Shown piece after piece: positions 1 through 8,794 of a DNA stretch of 64,000 nucleotides; position 1 is the stretch's first letter; each line of letters starts with the position of its first letter. The stretch covers positions 19,112 to 83,111 of the forward strand of contig JAZGEQ010000048.1 of the NCBI GenBank assembly GCA_036478775.1. Direction: 5' to 3'. Below the pieces are notes generated by a model. The model did not search any database, was not told where the DNA came from, and worked only from the letters and a program-made list of their open reading frames with translations. A program made the translations under genes and the position numbers. The DNA is from Cellulophaga sp. GTDB taxonomy: Bacteria; Bacteroidota; Bacteroidia; Flavobacteriales; Flavobacteriaceae.

Positions 1-605
1 TAATAAACACCAGTTTCGTGGGGTAAGTTATCGATAACAGATTTCGCTAATAAAGGAGGAAGTGTTGCTTGTCTAGATTTTGGGTTTAAAAAAGAAAGGA
101 CAACACCATTAGTATCTAAGGCGAGTAATTTTTCAAATAAAGTAACAGTAGCTTCCGCATCTCCTTTGGCACGGTGTCTACCATTAATTTTAATACCTAA
201 ACTGGTACATAGACTACCAAGGCTATAGGTGCGTTGTCCGGGTATTAGTTTTCGAGAAAGTCGTACCGTACACAGTTTTTTCCGTTTAAATTCGGCACCC
301 AATTCTTCAAACTCCGCTTTAATAACATTGTAGTCAAAATTCACATTATGTGCCACGAAAATACAATCCTTTGTATAAGCAATAACTTCTTTAGCAATTT
401 CGTGAAACTTTGGCGCTGTACGCACCATATCATCTGTAATACCTGTTAAGCCAGAGATTTTATAGTTGATAGGTATTTCCGGATTTACTAAAGTGGTAAA
501 CTCTTTCACAACCTTTTTTCCATTGTATACAAAAATGGATATTTCGGTGATTTTATTGCCTTTTCCGCCAAGGCCTGTAGTTTCTATATCAACAATAGCG
601 TACAT
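1..605 (-). CDS. DEDDh 3'-5' exonuclease (Pol III epsilon-like) with the start of a GIY-YIG domain; runs off the left edge
   Basis: Not in the ORF track; translated by hand from ATG at 605: MYAIVDIETTG (ExoI), FVAHNVNFD (ExoII), RHRAKGDA (ExoIII), then NLPHETGVY typical of a GIY-YIG N-terminus. Confidence 0.9.
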   Translation of the reverse strand, partial: MYAIVDIETTGLGGKGNKITEISIFVYNGKKVVKEFTTLVNPEIPINYKISGLTGITDDMVRTAPKFHEIAKEVIAYTKDCIFVAHNVNFDYNVIKAEFEELGAEFKRKKLCTVRLSRKLIPGQRTYSLGSLCTSLGIKINGRHRAKGDAEATVTLFEKLLALDTNGVVLSFLNPKSRQATLPPLLAKSVIDNLPHETGVY

Positions 606-666
606 TAAACTTGAGTTATGTGATTAGAGAAACGTAATGAATAGATTTTGAAATTCATTTTTAGAG

Positions 667-1443
667 TTAAATAGCTAGATTTTTATCTATAGATTTAAGT
701 TCTACTTTCAGTTCTTGAAACATAGTAATAATACTACTTAGCTTTAGTTCTTCAACATCATATTCCTGAGTGTTTATACAACAAGTAAATTCCCAGAGTT
801 CCAGAATATCTTCTGTTTTTACTTCAAAGGGTTTATACGTTTTATTGTCAGAAGAGAGTAATAAACTATTATTCAATTCAATTTTATTGTAAACTCTTTT
901 ATATACTAATCCGTCGTCCTTAGTAAGTACAATATAAGTTCTACCATCTTTAACATCCCTAATGTCATCTATAAATTTAGCAACGATAAAAGCACCATCT
1001 TTAACAGGAAGCATAGAATCACCTTTTATGGGGAAAGCCCTATGCGTACCCGTAGGTAAAAAAGGAAGCTTTATTTTTTGTAGCTGCTCAATATATTCTG
1101 GATCATCGTAACCGCTTAAATATCCAGCGGATGCTTTGGTAGGTATAATTTCTATTAATTCTTCATTGTCTTCGGTAACCGTAATAGGAAATAAAACTCT
1201 TTTACTCCCTATTTCTATAAAAGAGGTAGTTTCTGCCTTTCTCAAATCGTTTCTCACTAAAATATCAATAGGAATTTTAAAGTAATTTGAAAGGTCTATA
1301 AGTTTATCAATAGAAGGTTCTGATCGTCCTTCTTCATAAGATCCAACCATGGAGCGTGTCCATTTTAAATCCTCGGCAAATTGTTCTTGCGAAAGTTTCT
1401 TGGTGGTTCTTAAATGTTTTAAGTTAGTTTGTATGTACTTCAT
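667..1443 (-). CDS. XRE/CI-type HTH plus S24 peptidase repressor (non-canonical LexA-like)
   Basis: N-terminal HTH_3 (LKHLRTTKKLSQEQFAEDL), Ala-Gly cleavage site (KASAGY), catalytic Ser (GDSM) and Lys (VYKRV). Confidence 0.9.
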   Translation of the reverse strand: MKYIQTNLKHLRTTKKLSQEQFAEDLKWTRSMVGSYEEGRSEPSIDKLIDLSNYFKIPIDILVRNDLRKAETTSFIEIGSKRVLFPITVTEDNEELIEIIPTKASAGYLSGYDDPEYIEQLQKIKLPFLPTGTHRAFPIKGDSMLPVKDGAFIVAKFIDDIRDVKDGRTYIVLTKDDGLVYKRVYNKIELNNSLLLSSDNKTYKPFEVKTEDILELWEFTCCINTQEYDVEELKLSSIITMFQELKVELKSIDKNLAI

Positions 1444-1459
1444 ATAAATATATCAACAT

Positions 1460-1504
1460 ACTACAAAATTAAGCAATTAAAACTACAAATTGTAGTTAAT
1501 TTTG
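1460..1504. promoter_or_regulatory. Divergent promoters with operator palindrome AACTACA-AAT-TGTAGTT
   Basis: Perfect 7-3-7 inverted repeat at 1481-1497; TAATTTTG -7 elements at 1464-1471 (minus) and 1497-1504 (plus); second ACTACAAA half-site at 1460-1467. Confidence 0.7.
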
Positions 1505-1525
1505 AAAAAAGTAAAATCTGCTAGT

Positions 1526-4498
1526 TTGTATCTCAATTGTCACACATATTATAGCCTGCGTTACGGAACCATAAAACCTGAGTTTTTACTATCTCTTGCT
1601 TTAAAAAATAAGGTAAGTTCTATAGCGCTAACAGATATTAATACAACTTCGGCTTGTATGGATTTTGTACGCCTATCACCCAAGTATGCTATAAAACCAG
1701 TGCTTGGAGTCGATTTTAGAAACGGAGCACAGCAACAATTTGTACTCTTAGCTCGGAATAATAATGGTTTCGAAAAGATAAATAGTTATTTGTCTGGTTT
1801 TTTGCATGCTTCGGAAAATGAAATTCCTGATAGATCTCCACAATTGGCAGATACTTATGTTATTTATCCTTACGAGCACACCAAAAATTACAGTCTTAAA
1901 CAGAATGAGTTTTTAGGAGTAAAGTCCCAAGATTTGAATAAGCTTCGGTTTTCAGAATGGAATAACAAACGCAACAAGTTGGTTGTTTTACAAACGGTGT
2001 CCTTTCAAGGTAAAAAAGGATTTAATACACATCGGTTATTAAGAGCGATAGACAAGAATACTTTACTAAGTAAATTAGAAGTTTCGGAACAAGGAAAGGA
2101 ATTGGACACCATGTTACCGTTATCAAAGCTATACGAAGCATACCACGATTATCCCGAACTTATTGGGAATACAAAACGTTTGTTAGCGGGTTGTAAAATT
2201 GAATTCGATTTTTCTAAAACGACTCCTAAGAACCAACAAGCGTACACGGGGAATATGCAGTTAGATTATAGGCTTTTGAAAAAACTGACTTATGGCGGAT
2301 TAGACTACCGATACAAAACAGCAGATAATGAAGTAATAGCAAGAATAGAAAAAGAGCTAAAAATTATAAAAGAGAAGTGTTTTGTGTCTTACTTTTTAAT
2401 TAACTGGAAAATTTTAAAATACGCCAGAAGCAAGGGCTACTTTTATGTAGGTAGAGGGAGTGGCGCCAATAGTATTGTGGCATATTTACTTCGTATTACA
2501 GATGTAGATCCTATAGAATTAGATTTGTATTTTGAACGGTTTATAAACCTGTACAGAAAGAATCCGCCAGATTTTGACATCGATTTTTCTTGGAGAGATC
2601 GGGACGATATTACCACATTCATTTTTAATCGTTTTAAGCATGCGGCATTAATTACGGTGTACAATACTTTTAAATTTAAAGCATCGGTACGAGAGTTGGG
2701 AAAGGTTTTTGGTTTGCCTAAATCTGAAATAGATATGCTGAGCAGAGGTAAGTATATTATTGAGAATTTAGACAAATTATCACAGTTAGTACTTCGGTAT
2801 AGCGAGTATATATTGGGGTTCCCAAATTATTTAGGAATTCATGCCGGAGGTATATTAATAGCAGAAAAGCCAATACATTATTATTGCGCCACTTTTTTAC
2901 CACCTAAAGGATATGCAACAACTCAATTTGATATGCTAATAGCGGAAGATATAGGTCTGTATAAGTTTGATATTTTAAGCCAACGTGGTTTGGGAAAAAT
3001 TAAAGAAGCAGTAGAAATTGTACAGTATAACCACCCAAATTTGGAGCCACTAGATATTCATGATATAAAAAGTTTTAAGGAAGATAAACAAATCAAGCAT
3101 ATTTTAAAAAATGCGCAAGCTATAGGTTGTTTTTATGTCGAATCTCCGGCAATGCGTATGTTGCTTAAAAAATTACGAGTAGATGATTATTTGGGATTGG
3201 TGGCTGCCAGTTCTGTAATACGACCAGGAGTTGCGAAATCGGGAATGATGCGAGAGTATATTTTGCGTAGTAGAATACCCGAGCGAAGAAAAGAAGCACA
3301 CCCTATTTTGTTAGAAATTATGCCCGAAACTTTTGGGGTAATGGTTTACCAAGAAGATGTTATTAAAGTAGCACATTGTTATGGCGGATTAACCCCTAGT
3401 GAAGCAGATATGTTACGACGCGGAATGTCTGGAAAATTCCGCTCTAGGGAAGAGTTTTTAACAGTAAAACAACAGTTTTTTAATAATTGTAAAGCAGTGG
3501 GAAGAGCCGAGATTTTAACCGCAGATATTTGGCGACAAATAGAAAGCTTTGCTGGTTATGCATTTGCTAAAGGCCATTCCGCATCGTACGCAGTAGAAAG
3601 CTACCAGAGCTTGTATTTAAAGGCGTATTATCCTTTGGAATATATGGTGGCTACACTTAATAATTCAGGCGGATTTTACAGTAGAGAGTTGTATGTAAAC
3701 GAAGCAAGAATGCATGGCGGAATAATTGAAGCTCCCTGTGTAAATACTAGTAATAAGGAAACAATTATTAAGGACAAAACTATTTATTTAGGGTTTCACT
3801 TTTTACATGCTTTAGAAGCGAATACTATAGCAAGAATTCTTATAGAGCGAATCAAAAATGGCGTATTTACAAGTTTGAATGATTTTATAGAACGAGTTCC
3901 TATTTCCATCGAACAGCTTAGCATTTTAATAAAAATTAATGCATTTCGGTTTACAAGAATTAATAAAAGAGAACTGTTGTGGAATGCTCATATGAAAGTA
4001 AATAAAGCAAGTTTTGAAGAGCTGGTAATAACACTATTTCAAACCGAAAAAACAACTTATAAAACACCAAAATTACACTGTACAAATTTGGAAAATGCAT
4101 TTGACGAAATAGAGATGTTGGGATTTCCTTTATGTAGCCCTTTTCAGTTACTAACAAAAGAATATAAGAGTTCGGTTTTAGCAATAGATTTAGTACGCCA
4201 TAAAGATAAAATAGTTACGTTGTACGGCTATTTGGTAACCGTAAAAAATACAAGAACAAGTACAGGAAAAGGCATGTATTTTGGAACCTTTTTAGATCAA
4301 AGTGGAAATTTTATAGATACAGTACATTTTCCGTTTGTAGCCAGTAAATACCCTTTTAGAGGTAAAGGAGTGTATGCTATTATAGGTAAGGTAGTAGAAG
4401 AATTTGAAGCCGTTTCTATTGAAGTTTCCAAAATGTATCGGTTGGCAGTAATAGAAGACCCTAGATATACAGAACCTATTAAAACAGTAGAAATATGA
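1526..4498 (+). CDS. dnaE2: Error-prone DNA polymerase III alpha subunit (DnaE2-like)
   Basis: PHP start YLNCHTYYSL, GRGSGA, PDFDIDF catalytic motif, AFAKGHS, C-terminal OB fold; TTG at 1526 preferred because the TTG at 1502 lies inside the -7 promoter element. Confidence 0.9.
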   Translation: MYLNCHTYYSLRYGTIKPEFLLSLALKNKVSSIALTDINTTSACMDFVRLSPKYAIKPVLGVDFRNGAQQQFVLLARNNNGFEKINSYLSGFLHASENEIPDRSPQLADTYVIYPYEHTKNYSLKQNEFLGVKSQDLNKLRFSEWNNKRNKLVVLQTVSFQGKKGFNTHRLLRAIDKNTLLSKLEVSEQGKELDTMLPLSKLYEAYHDYPELIGNTKRLLAGCKIEFDFSKTTPKNQQAYTGNMQLDYRLLKKLTYGGLDYRYKTADNEVIARIEKELKIIKEKCFVSYFLINWKILKYARSKGYFYVGRGSGANSIVAYLLRITDVDPIELDLYFERFINLYRKNPPDFDIDFSWRDRDDITTFIFNRFKHAALITVYNTFKFKASVRELGKVFGLPKSEIDMLSRGKYIIENLDKLSQLVLRYSEYILGFPNYLGIHAGGILIAEKPIHYYCATFLPPKGYATTQFDMLIAEDIGLYKFDILSQRGLGKIKEAVEIVQYNHPNLEPLDIHDIKSFKEDKQIKHILKNAQAIGCFYVESPAMRMLLKKLRVDDYLGLVAASSVIRPGVAKSGMMREYILRSRIPERRKEAHPILLEIMPETFGVMVYQEDVIKVAHCYGGLTPSEADMLRRGMSGKFRSREEFLTVKQQFFNNCKAVGRAEILTADIWRQIESFAGYAFAKGHSASYAVESYQSLYLKAYYPLEYMVATLNNSGGFYSRELYVNEARMHGGIIEAPCVNTSNKETIIKDKTIYLGFHFLHALEANTIARILIERIKNGVFTSLNDFIERVPISIEQLSILIKINAFRFTRINKRELLWNAHMKVNKASFEELVITLFQTEKTTYKTPKLHCTNLENAFDEIEMLGFPLCSPFQLLTKEYKSSVLAIDLVRHKDKIVTLYGYLVTVKNTRTSTGKGMYFGTFLDQSGNFIDTVHFPFVASKYPFRGKGVYAIIGKVVEEFEAVSIEVSKMYRLAVIEDPRYTEPIKTVEI

Positions 4499-5712
4499 AA
4501 GCACAACGAAGTATTGTACATATGGATTTGGATACTTTTTTTGTGTCCTGCGAGCGTTTATTAGATAGCAAATTAATAGGTAAGCCAGTGCTTATTGGAG
4601 GTACATCAAACAGGGGAGTAGTAGCCTCTTGTAGTTATGAAGCCAGAAAATTTGGAATTCATTCTGCAATGCCTATGCGGATGGCAAAACAATTATGTCC
4701 AGAAGCAATAGTATTACGAGGAAATGCAGGGATATACACAAAGCAATCCAAATTGGTAACCGATGTAATAAAAGACAGTGTACCGTTATATGAGAAATCG
4801 TCTATAGATGAGTTTTATATAGACCTTACCGGAATGGATAAGTTTTTTGGGTGCCACCAATTGGCATCAGAGTTGCGGCATCGGATAAAGAAAGAAACAG
4901 GCTTGCCAATTTCTTTTGGATTGTCTATAAATAAAACAGTATCTAAAATAGCTACGGGAGAAGCTAAACCTAATAATGAAATCCGAATTATTAGTGGGGA
5001 GGAACGTTATTTTTTGGCACCATTATCTGTACGGAAAATACCAATGGTAGGCGAAGTAACGTATAAATCTTTATGCGATTTGGGGGTGAAAAAAATACAG
5101 ACAGTACAAGAAATGCCCATGCAATTAATGCATAGAGTATTGGGAAAAAACGGACTTAATATTTGGAAGAAAGCAAATGGGATAGACAATTCACCCGTAA
5201 TACATTATCAGGAGCGAAAATCTATATCTGTAGAACGTACGTTTGATAAGGATACTACAGACATGCAAAAACTAAGAACAATTCTGATAGCGATGGCAGA
5301 GAATTTGGCATACCAATTACGAAGAGGAAATAAGCTAACCGCCTGTATTACGTTTAAAATTAGGTATTCCGATTTTCAAACATATACCCAGCAATTACGA
5401 ATTCCCTATACGTCTATGGACCATATAATAACTCGCATAGTTTTAGAGCTGTTTGCTAAGTTGTACAATAGGCGTTTGTTGGTGCGTTTAATAGGACTTC
5501 GTTTTAGCCATTTGGTAGAAGGAGGCTACCAGATTAACTTATTTGAGGACAATGAAAAACGAATTAATTTAACACAGGCTATAGATGAAATTCGGGAACG
5601 TTATGGCGATAGAGCCGTTATTAACGCAGGGGGAATGGGGGCTAAAAGTATTAGTAGATGGAATCCTTTCTCTGGAGAACCACCGCCTTTATTGCCAAAT
5701 AGGAGGCGGTAA
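4495..5712 (+). CDS. dinB: DNA polymerase IV (Y family)
   Basis: HMDLDTFFVSCE, SYEARKFG and SIDE motifs; clamp-binding QINLF; ATGA overlap with dnaE2. Confidence 0.95.
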   Translation: MKAQRSIVHMDLDTFFVSCERLLDSKLIGKPVLIGGTSNRGVVASCSYEARKFGIHSAMPMRMAKQLCPEAIVLRGNAGIYTKQSKLVTDVIKDSVPLYEKSSIDEFYIDLTGMDKFFGCHQLASELRHRIKKETGLPISFGLSINKTVSKIATGEAKPNNEIRIISGEERYFLAPLSVRKIPMVGEVTYKSLCDLGVKKIQTVQEMPMQLMHRVLGKNGLNIWKKANGIDNSPVIHYQERKSISVERTFDKDTTDMQKLRTILIAMAENLAYQLRRGNKLTACITFKIRYSDFQTYTQQLRIPYTSMDHIITRIVLELFAKLYNRRLLVRLIGLRFSHLVEGGYQINLFEDNEKRINLTQAIDEIRERYGDRAVINAGGMGAKSISRWNPFSGEPPPLLPNRRR

Positions 5713-5726
5713 TTTTTGGTTTAGTA

Positions 5727-6224
5727 TTATTCCCTCCCCATAGAATTTTCAATACTCTCTTCTAATTGGTGCTGAATTGCTGTATAGGATATAATTTTCC
5801 AAGAATCGGACTTTTTAACGAGAGTAATAGTCGCTTTTGCAGTTGTTATTTCGCCAGATTCCGTTGTCCATGTCTGGTCAAATGCCACCCAGGAAAGATG
5901 TTTGTCATGAAGAATAAGGTAATTCGAATTTGCAAAAATAGAAGTTATTGGTTCAGGGTTTTCTTTAAAAAAGGTTCCCCAATTTTTGCCATTATTCTCC
6001 CAACCTCGTTTTTGTTCAAAACCCGATTTGGTAACATCCAATCTTAAAACGTCTTTGCTATGGTCCCAAAAAGAAGCCCATTTTTTATAATCCTTTTCCA
6101 TATAGGCTTTAGTTTCCCCAGTAATGGCAGCTTTGATAGCTTCTTCCTCAGCTTCTGCGGAGGTATTTGTAGTCTGACAAGAGAATAAAACTAGAATACA
6201 TAGTCCAGATATAAAGTTCTTCAT
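5727..6224 (-). CDS. Lipoprotein, NTF2/SnoaL-like fold
   Basis: Lipobox LFSC; ITGETKAY..DYKKWASFW and a C-terminal WKII strand pattern typical of NTF2-like proteins. Confidence 0.6.
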   Translation of the reverse strand: MKNFISGLCILVLFSCQTTNTSAEAEEEAIKAAITGETKAYMEKDYKKWASFWDHSKDVLRLDVTKSGFEQKRGWENNGKNWGTFFKENPEPITSIFANSNYLILHDKHLSWVAFDQTWTTESGEITTAKATITLVKKSDSWKIISYTAIQHQLEESIENSMGRE

Positions 6225-6314
6225 GGAAGTTATTTTATTTTATCGAAAAATACAAAAAATTTAGATACTTGCTTGTTCTATTAATCTTTGAGTACTGCTA
6301 ATGTTAGAATAGAG

Positions 6315-6992
6315 CTAGTCGTTTATCCACGGAGAAGAAAAATGTATTTCATCTTTACCAGAGTAAATAGGAGTAAGAGGATCTGTTGTAATATACCAAG
6401 ATCTAGTTTTACATAGTTTCATAGCATCAATCTGGAACAATCCTTCTGTTAGAATTTCTTCTGCTTTAGACTCAAAATTTTTATGGAAAGCAAAACCAAC
6501 AAGTTGGTAATCTGATTCAGAAAAATAGAAATACCATTTTTCCTTTACAAAGTCTATGGTTACTTTGTAACTTGGAATGTTGTGAAAGAGAGTTTGTATA
6601 ACAGATTCATGAACTACTCCATCATCGTTTTTAAGGGTCATAGGTAAACCAAGAATAAAATGATAAAAATTCTTAGTCCAAGCAGTCTGCTCACAAGTTT
6701 TATCGCCCATTATAACCGTACAAGAAGTATCTGTGAAATCAACGCGTTGCGCTAATGTGGTATTTGTATAGGAAACCCGCTTGTTAGGATTGTCTAATCC
6801 AATAAATAACTTATAAAAAGAACTATCAGGATAGACAAAATTACTTTGGATCGCTATTTTTTGCTGTAAATTATTCCATTGACTTTTAGGGTCGTGAAAA
6901 GCGATACTCTTTTTCAATATTTCCTTGCCTGAAGGGGGAGTAGTACACGCGGAGATTAGAAATAGTAGGAATAGATATTTTTTGCAGATCAT
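6315..6992 (-). CDS. Lipoprotein, DUF6503-like
   Basis: Lipobox ISAC; KSIAFHDP..W and YHFILGLPMTL motifs; ATG at 6992 preferred. Confidence 0.6.
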   Translation of the reverse strand: MICKKYLFLLFLISACTTPPSGKEILKKSIAFHDPKSQWNNLQQKIAIQSNFVYPDSSFYKLFIGLDNPNKRVSYTNTTLAQRVDFTDTSCTVIMGDKTCEQTAWTKNFYHFILGLPMTLKNDDGVVHESVIQTLFHNIPSYKVTIDFVKEKWYFYFSESDYQLVGFAFHKNFESKAEEILTEGLFQIDAMKLCKTRSWYITTDPLTPIYSGKDEIHFSSPWIND

Positions 6993-7436
6993 TTTATTAT
7001 TTCTTTTAATCAATTATTTACCTCTGCAAAAGAAAACAAATTACATGGATTGTTAGTTAGTTATGGTATAAATTTGAAAATGGGCACAAGAAATGTTTGA
7101 AATTATGTACAAAAAAGCATCCTTGATTTTAATAGATATCCCATCATTTTAATTCTGCTTATTTCGTATAGAAATAAAGTAATTTTTCGGATAGCGTATT
7201 TAATAACTATCTATTGTTTAGGTAGTTGATGTTTTGGTGAAATTAAAAATATTTTAATGAAATTTTATTCTAGTGTAGAATAATAACAAAGTTTTACTAC
7301 TCTTCAAAAATAGATACTTCGTTTTTACAATAATGGCATTTTTCTTGCGTTTCATACTCTTATACTTTATTTAAATATGCTATAATTCTATGTGAAATGG
7401 CAAAACAAATAATAATGCATATTAATAGTTAAAACA

Positions 7437-7926
7437 ATGATAAAAAAACAATTGCCCTCTTTTTAATGGTCGGATTTTTAGCTTCTTGCGGAGGTACAAA
7501 AGTAATTCGGCAATCAAAAAAATAATGAAAGGAACATGGGAACTGTCCAATATTACGTACAGTGAATCTGGAAACTTTAAAGTAAACTTATTTAGTGACA
7601 CGAGTAAAGAGTGTTTTAAAGGCAGTATATGGCAATTTATTCCAAATAATAATACTGGGATATATACTATTGACAACAATACATGTTCTACGGGTTCTAG
7701 AGATTTTATTTTTAAAATTCAAGTGATAAACGCAGAAACAGGATTGTACGATTTTTTATTAAAGCCTACGGATAACAAGCATAAATCGGAAACAAATAAT
7801 GGATTTAGAGTACATCTAGAACAACTTTCGGAGGAAACTATGCAATGGAAACAAACTATTTCTTTAGAAGGAAAACCTTTTTATATCTATATGCATTTCT
7901 CGAAACAAATAAAACAAATAAAGTAA
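7437..7926 (+). pseudogene. Lipocalin-like lipoprotein with two -1 frameshifts
   Basis: ATG at 7437, signal peptide (TIALFLMVGFLASCGG) and mature domain (KGTWELSNITY...) lie in three different frames; each junction is an A7 run (7442-7448, 7516-7522). Confidence 0.7.
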
Positions 7927-8083
7927 TATCTATAGAACTGTGAAACGAGCATTAATTTTTTTAATCAAAAAATACTCCTAAGAGTATGATTAAAATAAAT
8001 TTATGAGAGAACGAGTGTAATGAGAGGTTACATGGGTTCTTAAAATTTTAAATAATTTTCACCATTTACAAAATTTTAAACAT

Positions 8084-8794
8084 ATGAAAAAAATAATAAA
8101 AAGCCTTTCTATGGCTACACTTACAGTAGCTTTATCCCTAAATTTGGGAAGTTGTACGGCATTAAAAAATACAAATAACAAACAAAAAGGTGCCGCCATA
8201 GGTGTAGCAGGGGGTGCTATTTTAGGTGCTATAATAGGGAATAACACAGGGAATAAACAAAATTCAGAATTAGGTGCTGTTTTAGGAGGTGTTATTGGTG
8301 GTGCTGCGGGTGTATTAATTGGCAAAAAAATGGATAAGCAAGCGCAAGAGATAGAGACCGAAATTCCAGGGGCTGTTGTTGAACGTGTTGATGATGGTAT
8401 TGTTATTACTTTTGATGAAAAAAGTGGTGTTTATTTTGCAACAGGAAAATCAAACATAAATAGTTCGTCACAAATAACTTTAGATAAGTTAACTAGTGTG
8501 TTGAATTCATATTTGGATACTAATGTTTTGGTTATTGGGCATACAGATGATGTAGGTTCAGATGATCTTAATATGAATTTATCGAAAAAAAGAGCCAATG
8601 CGGTAACTGATTATTTCGTAAAAACGAAAAGTTTAAACGCACAAAGGTTCACTACACAATGGTATGGTGAAACACAACCAAAATTTGACAATACAACAAA
8701 AGAGGGACGTTCTAAAAATAGACGTGTAAATGTTGTTATTCTACCGAATGATAAGATGAAGGAAGATGCTAAAACCGAGTCTTACGGAAATTAA
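8084..8794 (+). CDS. OmpA family lipoprotein with glycine zipper
   Basis: Lipobox LGSC, GAAIG..GGAILGAIIG zipper, GHTD..G..N..LS..RA and NRRV OmpA motifs. Confidence 0.92.
   Translation: MKKIIKSLSMATLTVALSLNLGSCTALKNTNNKQKGAAIGVAGGAILGAIIGNNTGNKQNSELGAVLGGVIGGAAGVLIGKKMDKQAQEIETEIPGAVVERVDDGIVITFDEKSGVYFATGKSNINSSSQITLDKLTSVLNSYLDTNVLVIGHTDDVGSDDLNMNLSKKRANAVTDYFVKTKSLNAQRFTTQWYGETQPKFDNTTKEGRSKNRRVNVVILPNDKMKEDAKTESYGN

What the first reader, a model, noticed from the sequence alone, without database searches (positions are those of the whole stretch)
1..5712. Self-contained mutagenesis cassette: CI-like S24 repressor, DnaE2, active DinB and an exonuclease/GIY-YIG protein, with no ImuA/ImuB
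Seen: a repressor with intact Ala-Gly, Ser and Lys autocleavage residues sits divergent from a coupled dnaE2-dinB pair. DinB keeps its catalytic DxDxFF and SIDE motifs and a clamp motif (QINLF). Established: canonical imuA-imuB-dnaE2 cassettes use a catalytically dead ImuB as clamp adaptor, and Bacteroidetes SOS genes are controlled by non-canonical CI-like S24 repressors. Inference: an active Pol IV may stand in for ImuB, giving a two-polymerase mutasome.
Basis: partly seen in the sequence, partly recalled or inferred. Interest (0 to 1): 0.68.

Follow-up and report, generated by a model that had tools for sequence, protein, structure and literature searches.

The report
Known flavobacterial SOS two-polymerase cassette
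This is a damage-inducible gene cassette, with a self-cleaving repressor facing two error-prone DNA polymerases plus a repair nuclease; it is real and intact, but this kind of cassette and the idea that its two active polymerases work together without ImuA/ImuB are already published for this bacterial family.

Summary
Observation confirmed. The four genes are present and intact: a DEDDh-exonuclease/GIY-YIG nuclease (454 aa, running off the window start), an HTH_3+S24 repressor (A106-G107, S143, K182), a DnaE2-type polymerase, and a Y-family polymerase with an intact active site. The Y-family polymerase also has a QINLF clamp motif and a RecA-N-terminus-like motif.

The 99.8%-complete genome has no ImuA, no ImuB, no UmuD and no other S24 protein. 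A perfect palindrome (AACTACAA-A-TTGTAGTT, core CTAC-N5-GTAG) lies between two divergent TAATTTTG -7 boxes. It is conserved in 16 related genera and is the only strong site in the genome.

In 151 genera of the family, DnaE2 (80) and the special PolY (79 of the same 80, none elsewhere) co-occur almost perfectly.

Timinskas & Venclovas (2019, 2026) describe this Bacteroidetes "DnaE2B-PolY-RecA" module with two active polymerases and no ImuA/ImuB. Sánchez-Osuna et al. (2021) describe the CI-like "non-canonical LexA", its dyad-N5-dyad operators, and its control of dinB-dnaE operons and GIY-YIG exonucleases.

This locus is an ordinary member. Local details: a CTAC/GTAG operator variant, an apparently cassette-only regulon, and a likely TTG start at 1526.

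The parts
1..605 (-). 5' part (N-terminal 201 aa) of the DEDDh exonuclease / GIY-YIG nuclease gene. The full gene is 454 aa and runs to genome contig C48:18352, outside the window.
   Evidence: RNase_T at 4-157 (E 2e-32) and GIY-YIG at 199-268 (E 1.7e-6). It lies 61 nt downstream of the repressor on the same strand, with no TAnnTTTG box in the gap.
667..1443 (-). Repressor of 258 aa: N-terminal HTH_3 domain, S24 autopeptidase domain, C-terminal helix. This is a 'non-canonical LexA' of Bacteroidota.
   Evidence: HTH_3 E 1.8e-12; Peptidase_S24 E 4.3e-8. A106-G107, S143 and K182 are invariant; the model's C-terminal domain matches LexA, lambda CI and UmuD (Foldseek prob 1.0; rmsd 2.3-4.4 A over 94-150 columns). 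It is the only S24 protein in the genome.
1459..1471 (.). Imperfect second operator-like site, CTAC-AAAAT-TAAG (6 of 8 dyad positions). It overlaps the repressor gene's own -7 box (TAATTTTG, 1464-1471, minus strand). Its CTAC lies 24 bp upstream of the main operator's CTAC (1459 versus 1483).
   Evidence: it is conserved as CTACAAATATAAGCAA in all 16 aligned orthologous promoters. Its function as an autoregulatory site is inferred.
1481..1497 (.). Main operator: perfect 8-1-8 palindrome AACTACAA-A-TTGTAGTT (core CTAC-N5-GTAG).
   Evidence: 100% complementary arms; conserved in orthologous promoters of 16 genera, whether dnaE2 or polY is the first gene. PWM score 24.8 bits; the next best site in 4.7 Mb scores 19.0 and is inside coding sequence; the architecture matches the published dyad-N5-dyad operators.
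1497..1504 (+). Bacteroidota-type -7 promoter box TAATTTTG of the dnaE2-polY operon, abutting the operator.
   Evidence: It is conserved in relatives. The TAnnTTTG consensus is from general knowledge of Bacteroidetes promoters.
1526..4498 (+). DnaE2-type (DnaE2B) C-family polymerase, 990 aa from the TTG at 1526. The ORF is open from the TTG at 1502.
   Evidence: The catalytic Asp residues are conserved. PHP metal ligands are degenerate (YLNCHT versus HxHxH). It ends after the OB fold, with no tau-binding C-terminal domain. NCBIfam DnaE1 and DnaE2 models are both far below cut-off (479.5 vs 1002; 437.1 vs 939). A separate replicative DnaE1 of 1463 aa is on contig C56.
4495..5712 (+). Active Y-family polymerase of 405 aa ('Bacteroid PolY2' type). 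It has clamp motif QINLF (346-350), a RecA-NT-like motif (~354-378) and a conserved tail WNPFxGEPPPLL (389-400). Its start overlaps the dnaE2 stop (ATGA).
5689..5722 (+). Terminator-like hairpin plus T-run at the end of the operon.
   Evidence: This is a consensus match only.

Best explanation
This locus is an ordinary member of the Bacteroidota damage-inducible translesion cassette, described in the literature as DnaE2B-PolY-RecA under a non-canonical (CI-like HTH_3 + S24) LexA.

Proposed mechanism:
1. In undamaged cells, repressor dimers bind the CTAC-N5-GTAG palindrome. It sits between two back-to-back -7 boxes and touches that of dnaE2. They probably also bind a weaker site over the repressor's own -7 box. 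This shuts off both divergent transcription units: repressor plus Exo/GIY-YIG nuclease on one side, dnaE2 plus polY on the other.
2. DNA damage produces RecA-ssDNA filaments. These trigger self-cleavage at A106-G107 by the S143/K182 dyad.
3. The four genes are then expressed. The two polymerases are translationally coupled by an ATGA overlap.
4. PolY is catalytically competent. It supplies the beta-clamp contact (QINLF) and a RecA contact (RecA-N-terminus-like motif), which ImuB and ImuA supply in canonical cassettes.
5. PolY works with the proofreading-deficient DnaE2B, most simply as lesion inserter and extender.

Shown here: gene content, intact motifs, operator conservation and uniqueness, absence of ImuA/ImuB/UmuD, and near-perfect co-occurrence of the two polymerases.

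Inferred: repressor binding, RecA-dependent cleavage, induction by damage, the physical complex, and the division of labour between the polymerases.
For: - Domains and catalytic residues are intact and conserved.
- The repressor model's C-terminal domain matches LexA, CI and UmuD.
- The palindrome lies between two TAATTTTG boxes. It is conserved in 16 genera and is the top-scoring site in the genome by 5.8 bits.
- Other clades of the same cassette carry the published operators instead: two GGA-N5-TCC sites, or CTAA-N5-TTAG.
- The genome has only 2 Y-family genes, 2 DnaE genes, 1 S24 protein and 1 RecA, and no ImuA.
- Of 80 related loci, 66 have PolY within 5 kb of DnaE2, in either gene order.
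- In 151 genera of the family, DnaE2B is in 80. A PolY2 orthologue (at least 60% identity) is in 79 of those 80 and in none of the other 71. The one exception is a locus cut by a contig end. Two genomes carry two adjacent pairs.
- The PolY tail resembles the N-terminus of the genome's own RecA: score 36 versus 17.6 +/- 3.3 in shuffles, with 3 of 5000 shuffles reaching it.
- In the PolY model the clamp motif sits in a disordered linker, followed by a helix at 354-370.
- Literature: PMC6511836, PMC12926913 and PMC8565304.
Against: - No expression, binding or cleavage data exist for this organism.
[quoted passage not shown] The operator assignment therefore rests on architecture and conservation.
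- No multimer prediction could be run here.
- The co-occurrence survey is not corrected for phylogeny.
- DnaE2 keeps a conserved xxTLF motif, so it might reach the clamp by itself.
- A few DnaE2B loci have no PolY within 5 kb.
Confidence: 0.8

Rival explanations
1. The two polymerases are co-regulated but act independently. PolY2 works alone with RecA (the common PolY-RecA type). DnaE2B is a separate error-prone gap-filler. The operon reflects shared regulation, not a complex.
For: - Both enzymes have complete active sites.
- DnaE2 keeps a conserved xxTLF motif where DnaE1 has its clamp motif.
- A few loci have DnaE2B without an adjacent PolY.
- PMC12926913 reports PolY-RecA as the most abundant type.
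Against: - Co-occurrence is near-perfect, and copy number covaries, in 151 genera.
- Linkage is kept through a swap of gene order.
- The genes are translationally coupled here.
- A strongly conserved PolY tail, WNPFxGEPPPLL, has no assigned partner.
- Published AlphaFold multimer models support complexes for all such modules.
Confidence: 0.15
2. PolY2 acts purely as an ImuB-like adaptor. Its catalytic activity is dispensable, and DnaE2B does all the synthesis.
For: By analogy with ImuB and with the Streptomyces iPolY-DnaE2 pair. PolY carries the clamp motif and the RecA-NT motif, as ImuB does.
Against: The catalytic residues D11, D105 and E106 are invariant in 33-71 orthologues. Adaptor-only homologues elsewhere have lost them.
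Confidence: 0.04
3. The locus is a remnant of a prophage or mobile element. The CI-like repressor is an immunity repressor, and the polymerases are cargo, without RecA-dependent SOS control.
For: The N-terminal domain is CI/Cro-like. The cassette is patchily distributed, in 53% of genera, with varying flanks.
Against: - There are no phage or integrase genes nearby.
- GC content is like the surroundings.
- The cleavage residues are invariant.
- It is the only S24 protein in the genome.
- Homologous regulators were shown to respond to mitomycin C and to bind such palindromes.
Confidence: 0.01

Closest known systems
Bacteroidetes DnaE2B-PolY-RecA putative mutasome ('Bacteroid PolY2' + DnaE2; e.g. 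Cellulophaga algicola; Timinskas & Venclovas 2019, PMC6511836; 2026, PMC12926913)
   Same: - A second, short DnaE with degenerate PHP sits adjacent to a catalytically intact Y-family polymerase.
- That polymerase has a clamp motif and a RecA-NT-like motif.
- The genome has no imuA, imuB or ImuB-C.
- Same bacterial family.
   Different: Nothing essential. Here the gene order is dnaE2 then polY with an ATGA overlap. A repressor and an exonuclease gene are attached on the other side.
Non-canonical LexA of Bacteroidetes (COG2932; P. actiniarum CTAA-N5-TTAG group; E. anophelis TTAC-AAATT-GTAA variant; Sánchez-Osuna et al. 2021, PMC8565304)
   Same: - HTH_3 plus S24 with Ala-Gly, Ser and Lys.
- A dyad-N5-dyad palindrome in its own promoter.
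- Divergent from an error-prone polymerase gene.
- GIY-YIG exonuclease and dinB-dnaE operons are in the regulon.
- A related genus (Winogradskyella sp. PG-2) is listed in their type-2 group.
   Different: The dyads here read CTAC/GTAG rather than CTAA/TTAG. No second site is detectable elsewhere in this genome, so the regulon appears limited to the cassette.
Canonical ImuA(ImuA')-ImuB-DnaE2 mutasome (M. tuberculosis, P. aeruginosa, C. crescentus)
   Same: An SOS-type, damage-inducible cassette. It pairs a DnaE2 with a Y-family protein that carries the clamp and RecA/ImuA-binding motifs.
   Different: There is no ImuA. The Y-family partner is catalytically intact and lacks the ImuB-C beta-barrel. 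The DnaE2 belongs to a different clade (DnaE2B) and does not reach the NCBIfam DnaE2 cut-off.
Streptomyces coelicolor DinB2-DnaE2 (DnaE2B-iPolY-RecA)
   Same: DnaE2B is coupled to a Y-family gene, without ImuA or ImuB-C.
   Different: The Streptomyces Y-family partner is catalytically inactive. Here it is active.
[quoted passage not shown]
   Same: A RecA-activated, LexA-type-controlled mutagenic polymerase with a RecA-NT motif. An SOS-controlled GIY-YIG nuclease is also present.
   Different: There is no UmuD. The second subunit is a C-family polymerase. The nuclease is fused to a DnaQ-like exonuclease.

Membership tests
Bacteroidota non-canonical LexA (HTH_3 + S24, COG2932) | N-terminal penta-helical HTH_3 (PF01381) DNA-binding domain | tested here: met
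   HTH_3 at residues 8-62, E 1.8e-12; five helices with confident pLDDT.
Bacteroidota non-canonical LexA (HTH_3 + S24, COG2932) | S24 peptidase domain with an Ala-Gly cleavage site and a Ser-Lys dyad | tested here: met
   (PF00717, E 4.3e-8). A106-G107, S143 and K182 are invariant in 24 orthologues spanning both regulator clades. The fold matches LexA, CI and UmuD.
Bacteroidota non-canonical LexA (HTH_3 + S24, COG2932) | Palindromic dyad-N5-dyad operator in its own promoter and in promoters of error-prone polymerase genes | tested here: met
   CTAC-N5-GTAG at 1483-1495 lies between the divergent promoters. It is conserved in 16 genera. The dyad letters differ from the two published consensus motifs.
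Bacteroidota non-canonical LexA (HTH_3 + S24, COG2932) | RecA-stimulated self-cleavage and induction of the regulon by DNA damage | not testable with these tools
   This needs biochemistry or RNA data.
DnaE2B-PolY-RecA putative mutasome | A non-replicative DnaE paralogue beside a full DnaE1. It has catalytic Asp residues, degenerate PHP ligands and no tau-binding C-terminal domain. | tested here: met
DnaE2B-PolY-RecA putative mutasome | Linked Y-family polymerase with an intact active site | tested here: met
   Linkage is seen in 66 of 80 loci. Co-occurrence is 79 of 80 versus 0 of 71.
DnaE2B-PolY-RecA putative mutasome | RecA-NT-like motif and beta-clamp motif in the PolY C-terminal extension | tested here: met
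   QINLF at 346-350 and L..QA.D.IR.RYGDRAV at 354-378 are conserved. The similarity to the genome's own RecA N-terminus is beaten by only 3 of 5000 shuffles. Helix at 354-370.
DnaE2B-PolY-RecA putative mutasome | Genome lacks imuA and imuB | tested here: met
   The genome is 99.79% complete.
DnaE2B-PolY-RecA putative mutasome | Physical complex of DnaE2B, PolY and RecA | not testable with these tools
   Only monomer prediction is available here. Published AlphaFold multimer models exist.
Canonical ImuA-ImuB-DnaE2 cassette | ImuA (RecA-like) gene present | tested here: not met
   The only hit of NF033429 is RecA itself (43 bits; cut-off 150). Caveat: the same model reached its cut-off in none of the 14 control genomes, so this search is a weak test on its own.
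Canonical ImuA-ImuB-DnaE2 cassette | Catalytically dead Y-family ImuB with an ImuB-C domain | tested here: not met
   The genome has only two IMS-domain genes, and both keep the catalytic motifs. The PolY tail is about 55 residues, with no beta-barrel domain.
Canonical ImuA-ImuB-DnaE2 cassette | DnaE2 reaching the NCBIfam error-prone polymerase model (NF004225) | tested here: not met
   437.1 bits against a cut-off of 939.
DnaQ-like exonuclease / GIY-YIG (Cho-like) nuclease | DEDDh exonuclease domain followed by a GIY-YIG domain | tested here: met
   The motifs DIETTG, HNVNFD, H..GD, GVY, YVG, R and N are visible in the sequence.

The most novel reading that the evidence does not exclude
In this genome the non-canonical LexA runs a fully private SOS circuit. 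One operator would control only its own four genes, and not recA or any other repair gene. The cassette-linked Exo/GIY-YIG paralogue would be a working accessory of the two-polymerase machine, for example as a trans-acting proofreader or incision nuclease for the PHP-dead DnaE2B. That would make this a four-component, self-contained mutagenesis module.
Probability: 0.1. Interest if true: 0.5.

Novelty: already known. Interest (0 to 1): 0.2.

Why it matters
The module itself matters. It is a widespread route to damage-induced mutagenesis in Bacteroidota, present in about half of the genera of this family. It uses two active polymerases and dispenses with ImuA, ImuB and UmuD, and no member has been studied biochemically.

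This particular locus adds no new principle. It does offer a compact example: four genes, one perfect operator, and no other S24 regulator in the genome. It also shows that the same cassette is wired to three different operator types in different clades.

Tried and rejected
- CTAC-N5-GTAG is not enriched genome-wide: 31 found versus about 44 expected. One-mismatch sites in promoters are no more frequent than their share of intergenic DNA.
- A look-alike site at the dnaE1 start (C56:131541) is coding sequence that overlaps the ATG.
- No site was found upstream of recA, the housekeeping dinB, the exonuclease paralogue or ydjM.
- The ImuA model hit on contig C21 is RecA.
- NCBIfam cannot assign the DnaE to DnaE1 or DnaE2, because both models fall below cut-off. 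I made no DnaE tree against reference DnaE2A sequences, since no reference sequences could be fetched.
- The exonuclease is not an obligate partner. The cassette-type paralogue is in roughly 56 of 80 genomes with the cassette but also in 13 of 71 without it. It is adjacent to the cassette in only about a dozen. These numbers were counted by eye.
- The prophage-origin idea was rejected for lack of any phage genes.
Full report
**What is there**

The window is C48:19112-83111 of an 86-contig, 4.71-Mb genome that is 99.79% complete. Its closest relatives are Flavobacteriaceae such as Yeosuana, Hyunsoonleella, Algibacter and Winogradskyella. The first 5.7 kb hold four genes.

On the minus strand:
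- 667-1443 is a 258-aa protein with HTH_3 (8-62) and Peptidase_S24 (100-211).
- 61 nt downstream, 605-3 is the start of a DEDDh exonuclease gene.

On the plus strand:
- 1502/1526-4498 is a DnaE-family polymerase with PHP, palm, fingers, HhH and OB fold.
- 4495-5712 is a Y-family polymerase. Its start overlaps the dnaE2 stop by ATGA.
- A terminator-like hairpin closes the operon.

**Are the parts intact?**

- The PolY residues D11/D13 and D105/E106 align with E. coli DinB D8/D10 and D103/E104. They are invariant in 33-71 orthologues.
- The DnaE residues D349, D351 and the Asp of KFDIL align with E. coli alpha D401, D403 and D555, and they are conserved.
- The DnaE PHP ligands are degenerate (YLNCHT). 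The protein stops after the OB fold, so it lacks the tau-binding domain.
- NCBIfam places the DnaE below the cut-offs of both the DnaE1 model (479.5 vs 1002) and the DnaE2 model (437.1 vs 939). This fits the separate 'DnaE2B' clade of the literature.
- The replicative DnaE1 is elsewhere (C56). It is 1463 aa with a fused N-terminal exonuclease.
- In the repressor, A106-G107, S143 and K182 are invariant in 24 orthologues that span two regulator clades.
- An AlphaFold model of the repressor is of moderate quality (mean pLDDT 64). Its HTH and S24 core are confident. The core matches LexA, lambda/186 repressor and UmuD.

**No ImuA/ImuB**

The whole genome has two IMS-domain genes only: this PolY and a 366-aa housekeeping DinB without a C-terminal extension. 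It has two DnaE genes and a single S24 protein, which is this repressor, so there is no UmuD and no canonical LexA. The ImuA model hits only the 335-aa RecA. That model also reached its cut-off in none of the 14 control genomes, so by itself it is a weak test.

**PolY extension**

Beyond the little finger, PolY has three features:
- A conserved Q[IV]NLF clamp motif at 346-350.
- A segment, L.L.QA.D.IR.RYGDRAV, that resembles the N-terminus of the genome's own RecA. The local alignment score is 36, against 17.6 +/- 3.3 for shuffles, and 3 of 5000 shuffles reach it.
- A strongly conserved tail, WNPFxGEPPPLL.

In the monomer model the clamp motif is in a disordered linker, followed by a helix at 354-370. 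The DnaE2 keeps only a weak xxTLF motif where DnaE1 has its clamp motif.

**Regulatory region**

The 58-bp gap between the divergent genes holds a perfect 8-1-8 palindrome, AACTACAA-A-TTGTAGTT, at 1481-1497. It lies between two identical Bacteroidota -7 boxes, TAATTTTG: 1464-1471 on the minus strand and 1497-1504 on the plus strand. An imperfect copy, CTAC-N5-TAAG, overlaps the repressor's own -7 box.

The TTG at 1502 lies inside the plus-strand -7 box. The TTG at 1526 aligns with the ATG of orthologues. The polymerase therefore most likely starts at 1526.

The whole core is conserved in 16 genera, whichever polymerase gene comes first. Its consensus is TTACTACAAATATAAGCAA-N5-ACTACAAATTGTAGCTAATTTTG.

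A weight matrix built from 18 orthologous sites scores the window's site at 24.8 bits. The next best site in the genome scores 19.0 and is inside coding sequence. No other promoter reaches 17. recA, the housekeeping dinB, the exonuclease paralogue and ydjM have no site. The regulon therefore appears confined to the cassette. One caveat: the matrix was trained on cassette promoters only.

**Comparative evidence**

DnaE2 relatives are abundant in Bacteroidota, with at least 587 confirmed loci.

Among the best 80 loci:
- 66 have the PolY gene within 5 kb, in either order. Near relatives have dnaE2 then polY. More distant ones have polY then dnaE2.
- About 29 have the repressor adjacent and divergent.
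- Two have the repressor as the first gene of the operon.
- Four others have the exonuclease behind the repressor, as here.

Where no repressor is adjacent, the promoter carries two GGA-N5-TCC sites 19 bp apart, or a CTAA-N5-TTAG site. These are the two published operators.

In a survey of 151 genera of the family:
- DnaE2B is present in 80.
- PolY2 orthologues (60-85% identity, clearly separated from housekeeping DinB at about 36%) are in 79 of those 80 and in none of the other 71.
- The one exception is a locus cut by a contig end.
- Two genomes have two pairs, each pair adjacent.

This supports functional dependence, though it is not corrected for phylogeny.

The cassette-type exonuclease paralogue is only loosely associated. 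It is in roughly 56 of 80 genomes with the cassette and 13 of 71 without it, and it is adjacent in about a dozen (counted by eye).

**What is already known**

[quoted passage not shown] They note that imuA is absent from the genomes and that a RecA-NT-like motif suggests RecA replaces ImuA.
- Their 2026 paper (PMC12926913) names it DnaE2B-PolY-RecA. [quoted passage not shown]
- Sánchez-Osuna et al. 2021 (PMC8565304) identified the HTH_3+S24 'non-canonical LexA'. They showed EMSA binding to GGA-N5-TCC, CTAA-N5-TTAG and a divergent TTAC-AAATT-GTAA palindrome. They also showed mitomycin C induction of a regulator and its divergent error-prone polymerase. They listed dinB-dnaE operons, the GIY-YIG exonuclease and the repressor itself in the regulon.
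- Their supplement places Winogradskyella sp. PG-2, a genus among the relatives found here, in the type-2 regulator group. It also contains CTAC-bearing variants in the motif set.
- I found no experimental paper on the DnaE2-PolY pair of Bacteroidota.

**Verdict**

The locus-specific details are minor:
- A CTAC/GTAG dyad variant.
- A regulon that seems limited to four genes.
- A probable TTG start.
- A facultative exonuclease neighbour.

An earlier first-stage note on the same palindrome (e1-5258920) agrees with my independent reading.

Noticed in passing
genome contig C21:91153-92020 (outside the window): A second HTH_3 regulator of 234 aa is 21% identical to the cassette repressor. It has an S24-like 'SDNSM ... 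CKE' C-terminal part that does not reach Pfam's S24 model and has no Ala-Gly site. Its promoter holds a perfect palindrome TGTAATT-C-AATTACA (GTAA-N5-TTAC). It may be a diverged, non-cleavable paralogue of the non-canonical LexA family.
   Followed up: partly
genome contig C48:17227-18231 (just upstream of the window start): A YdjM-family inner-membrane protein gene (PF04307, E 5e-35) lies convergent with the Exo/GIY-YIG gene. In E. coli ydjM is a LexA-regulated gene. No operator-like site lies upstream of it here.
   Followed up: partly
genome contig C46:39619-40980 (outside the window): A second Exo/GIY-YIG paralogue of 453 aa, 50% identical, sits in a housekeeping context without an operator. 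Across the family there are two paralogue classes, one often linked to the SOS cassette.
   Followed up: partly
genome contig C56:131548-135939 (outside the window): The replicative DnaE1 is 1463 aa with a DnaQ-like exonuclease fused to its N-terminus, as reported for some Bacteroidetes.
   Followed up: no
loci L036:1963-7961 and L046:1990-7964: In two Cryomorphaceae-like MAGs the repressor (about 41% identical, without the C-terminal helix) is co-directional. It is the first gene of a repressor-polY-dnaE2 operon rather than divergent.
   Followed up: no
window 215-258 of the repressor protein (DNA 670-801): The repressor has a roughly 40-residue C-terminal extension beyond the S24 domain, with a conserved helix (ELKLSSI..MFQELKVELK). 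It is also present in the GGA-N5-TCC clade and absent from LexA and CI. It could mediate higher-order oligomerisation on the two operator-like sites.
   Followed up: no
window 606-666: The repressor-exonuclease spacer contains an AT-rich inverted repeat (AATGAAT-N8-ATTCATT) and no -7 box. It may act as an attenuator or mRNA-processing site within the repressor-nuclease transcript.
   Followed up: no
window 5727-8794: The downstream neighbours are unrelated to DNA repair: a 165-aa lipoprotein without a family, a DUF6503 protein, a lipocalin-like protein and an OmpA-family protein with a glycine zipper.
   Followed up: partly
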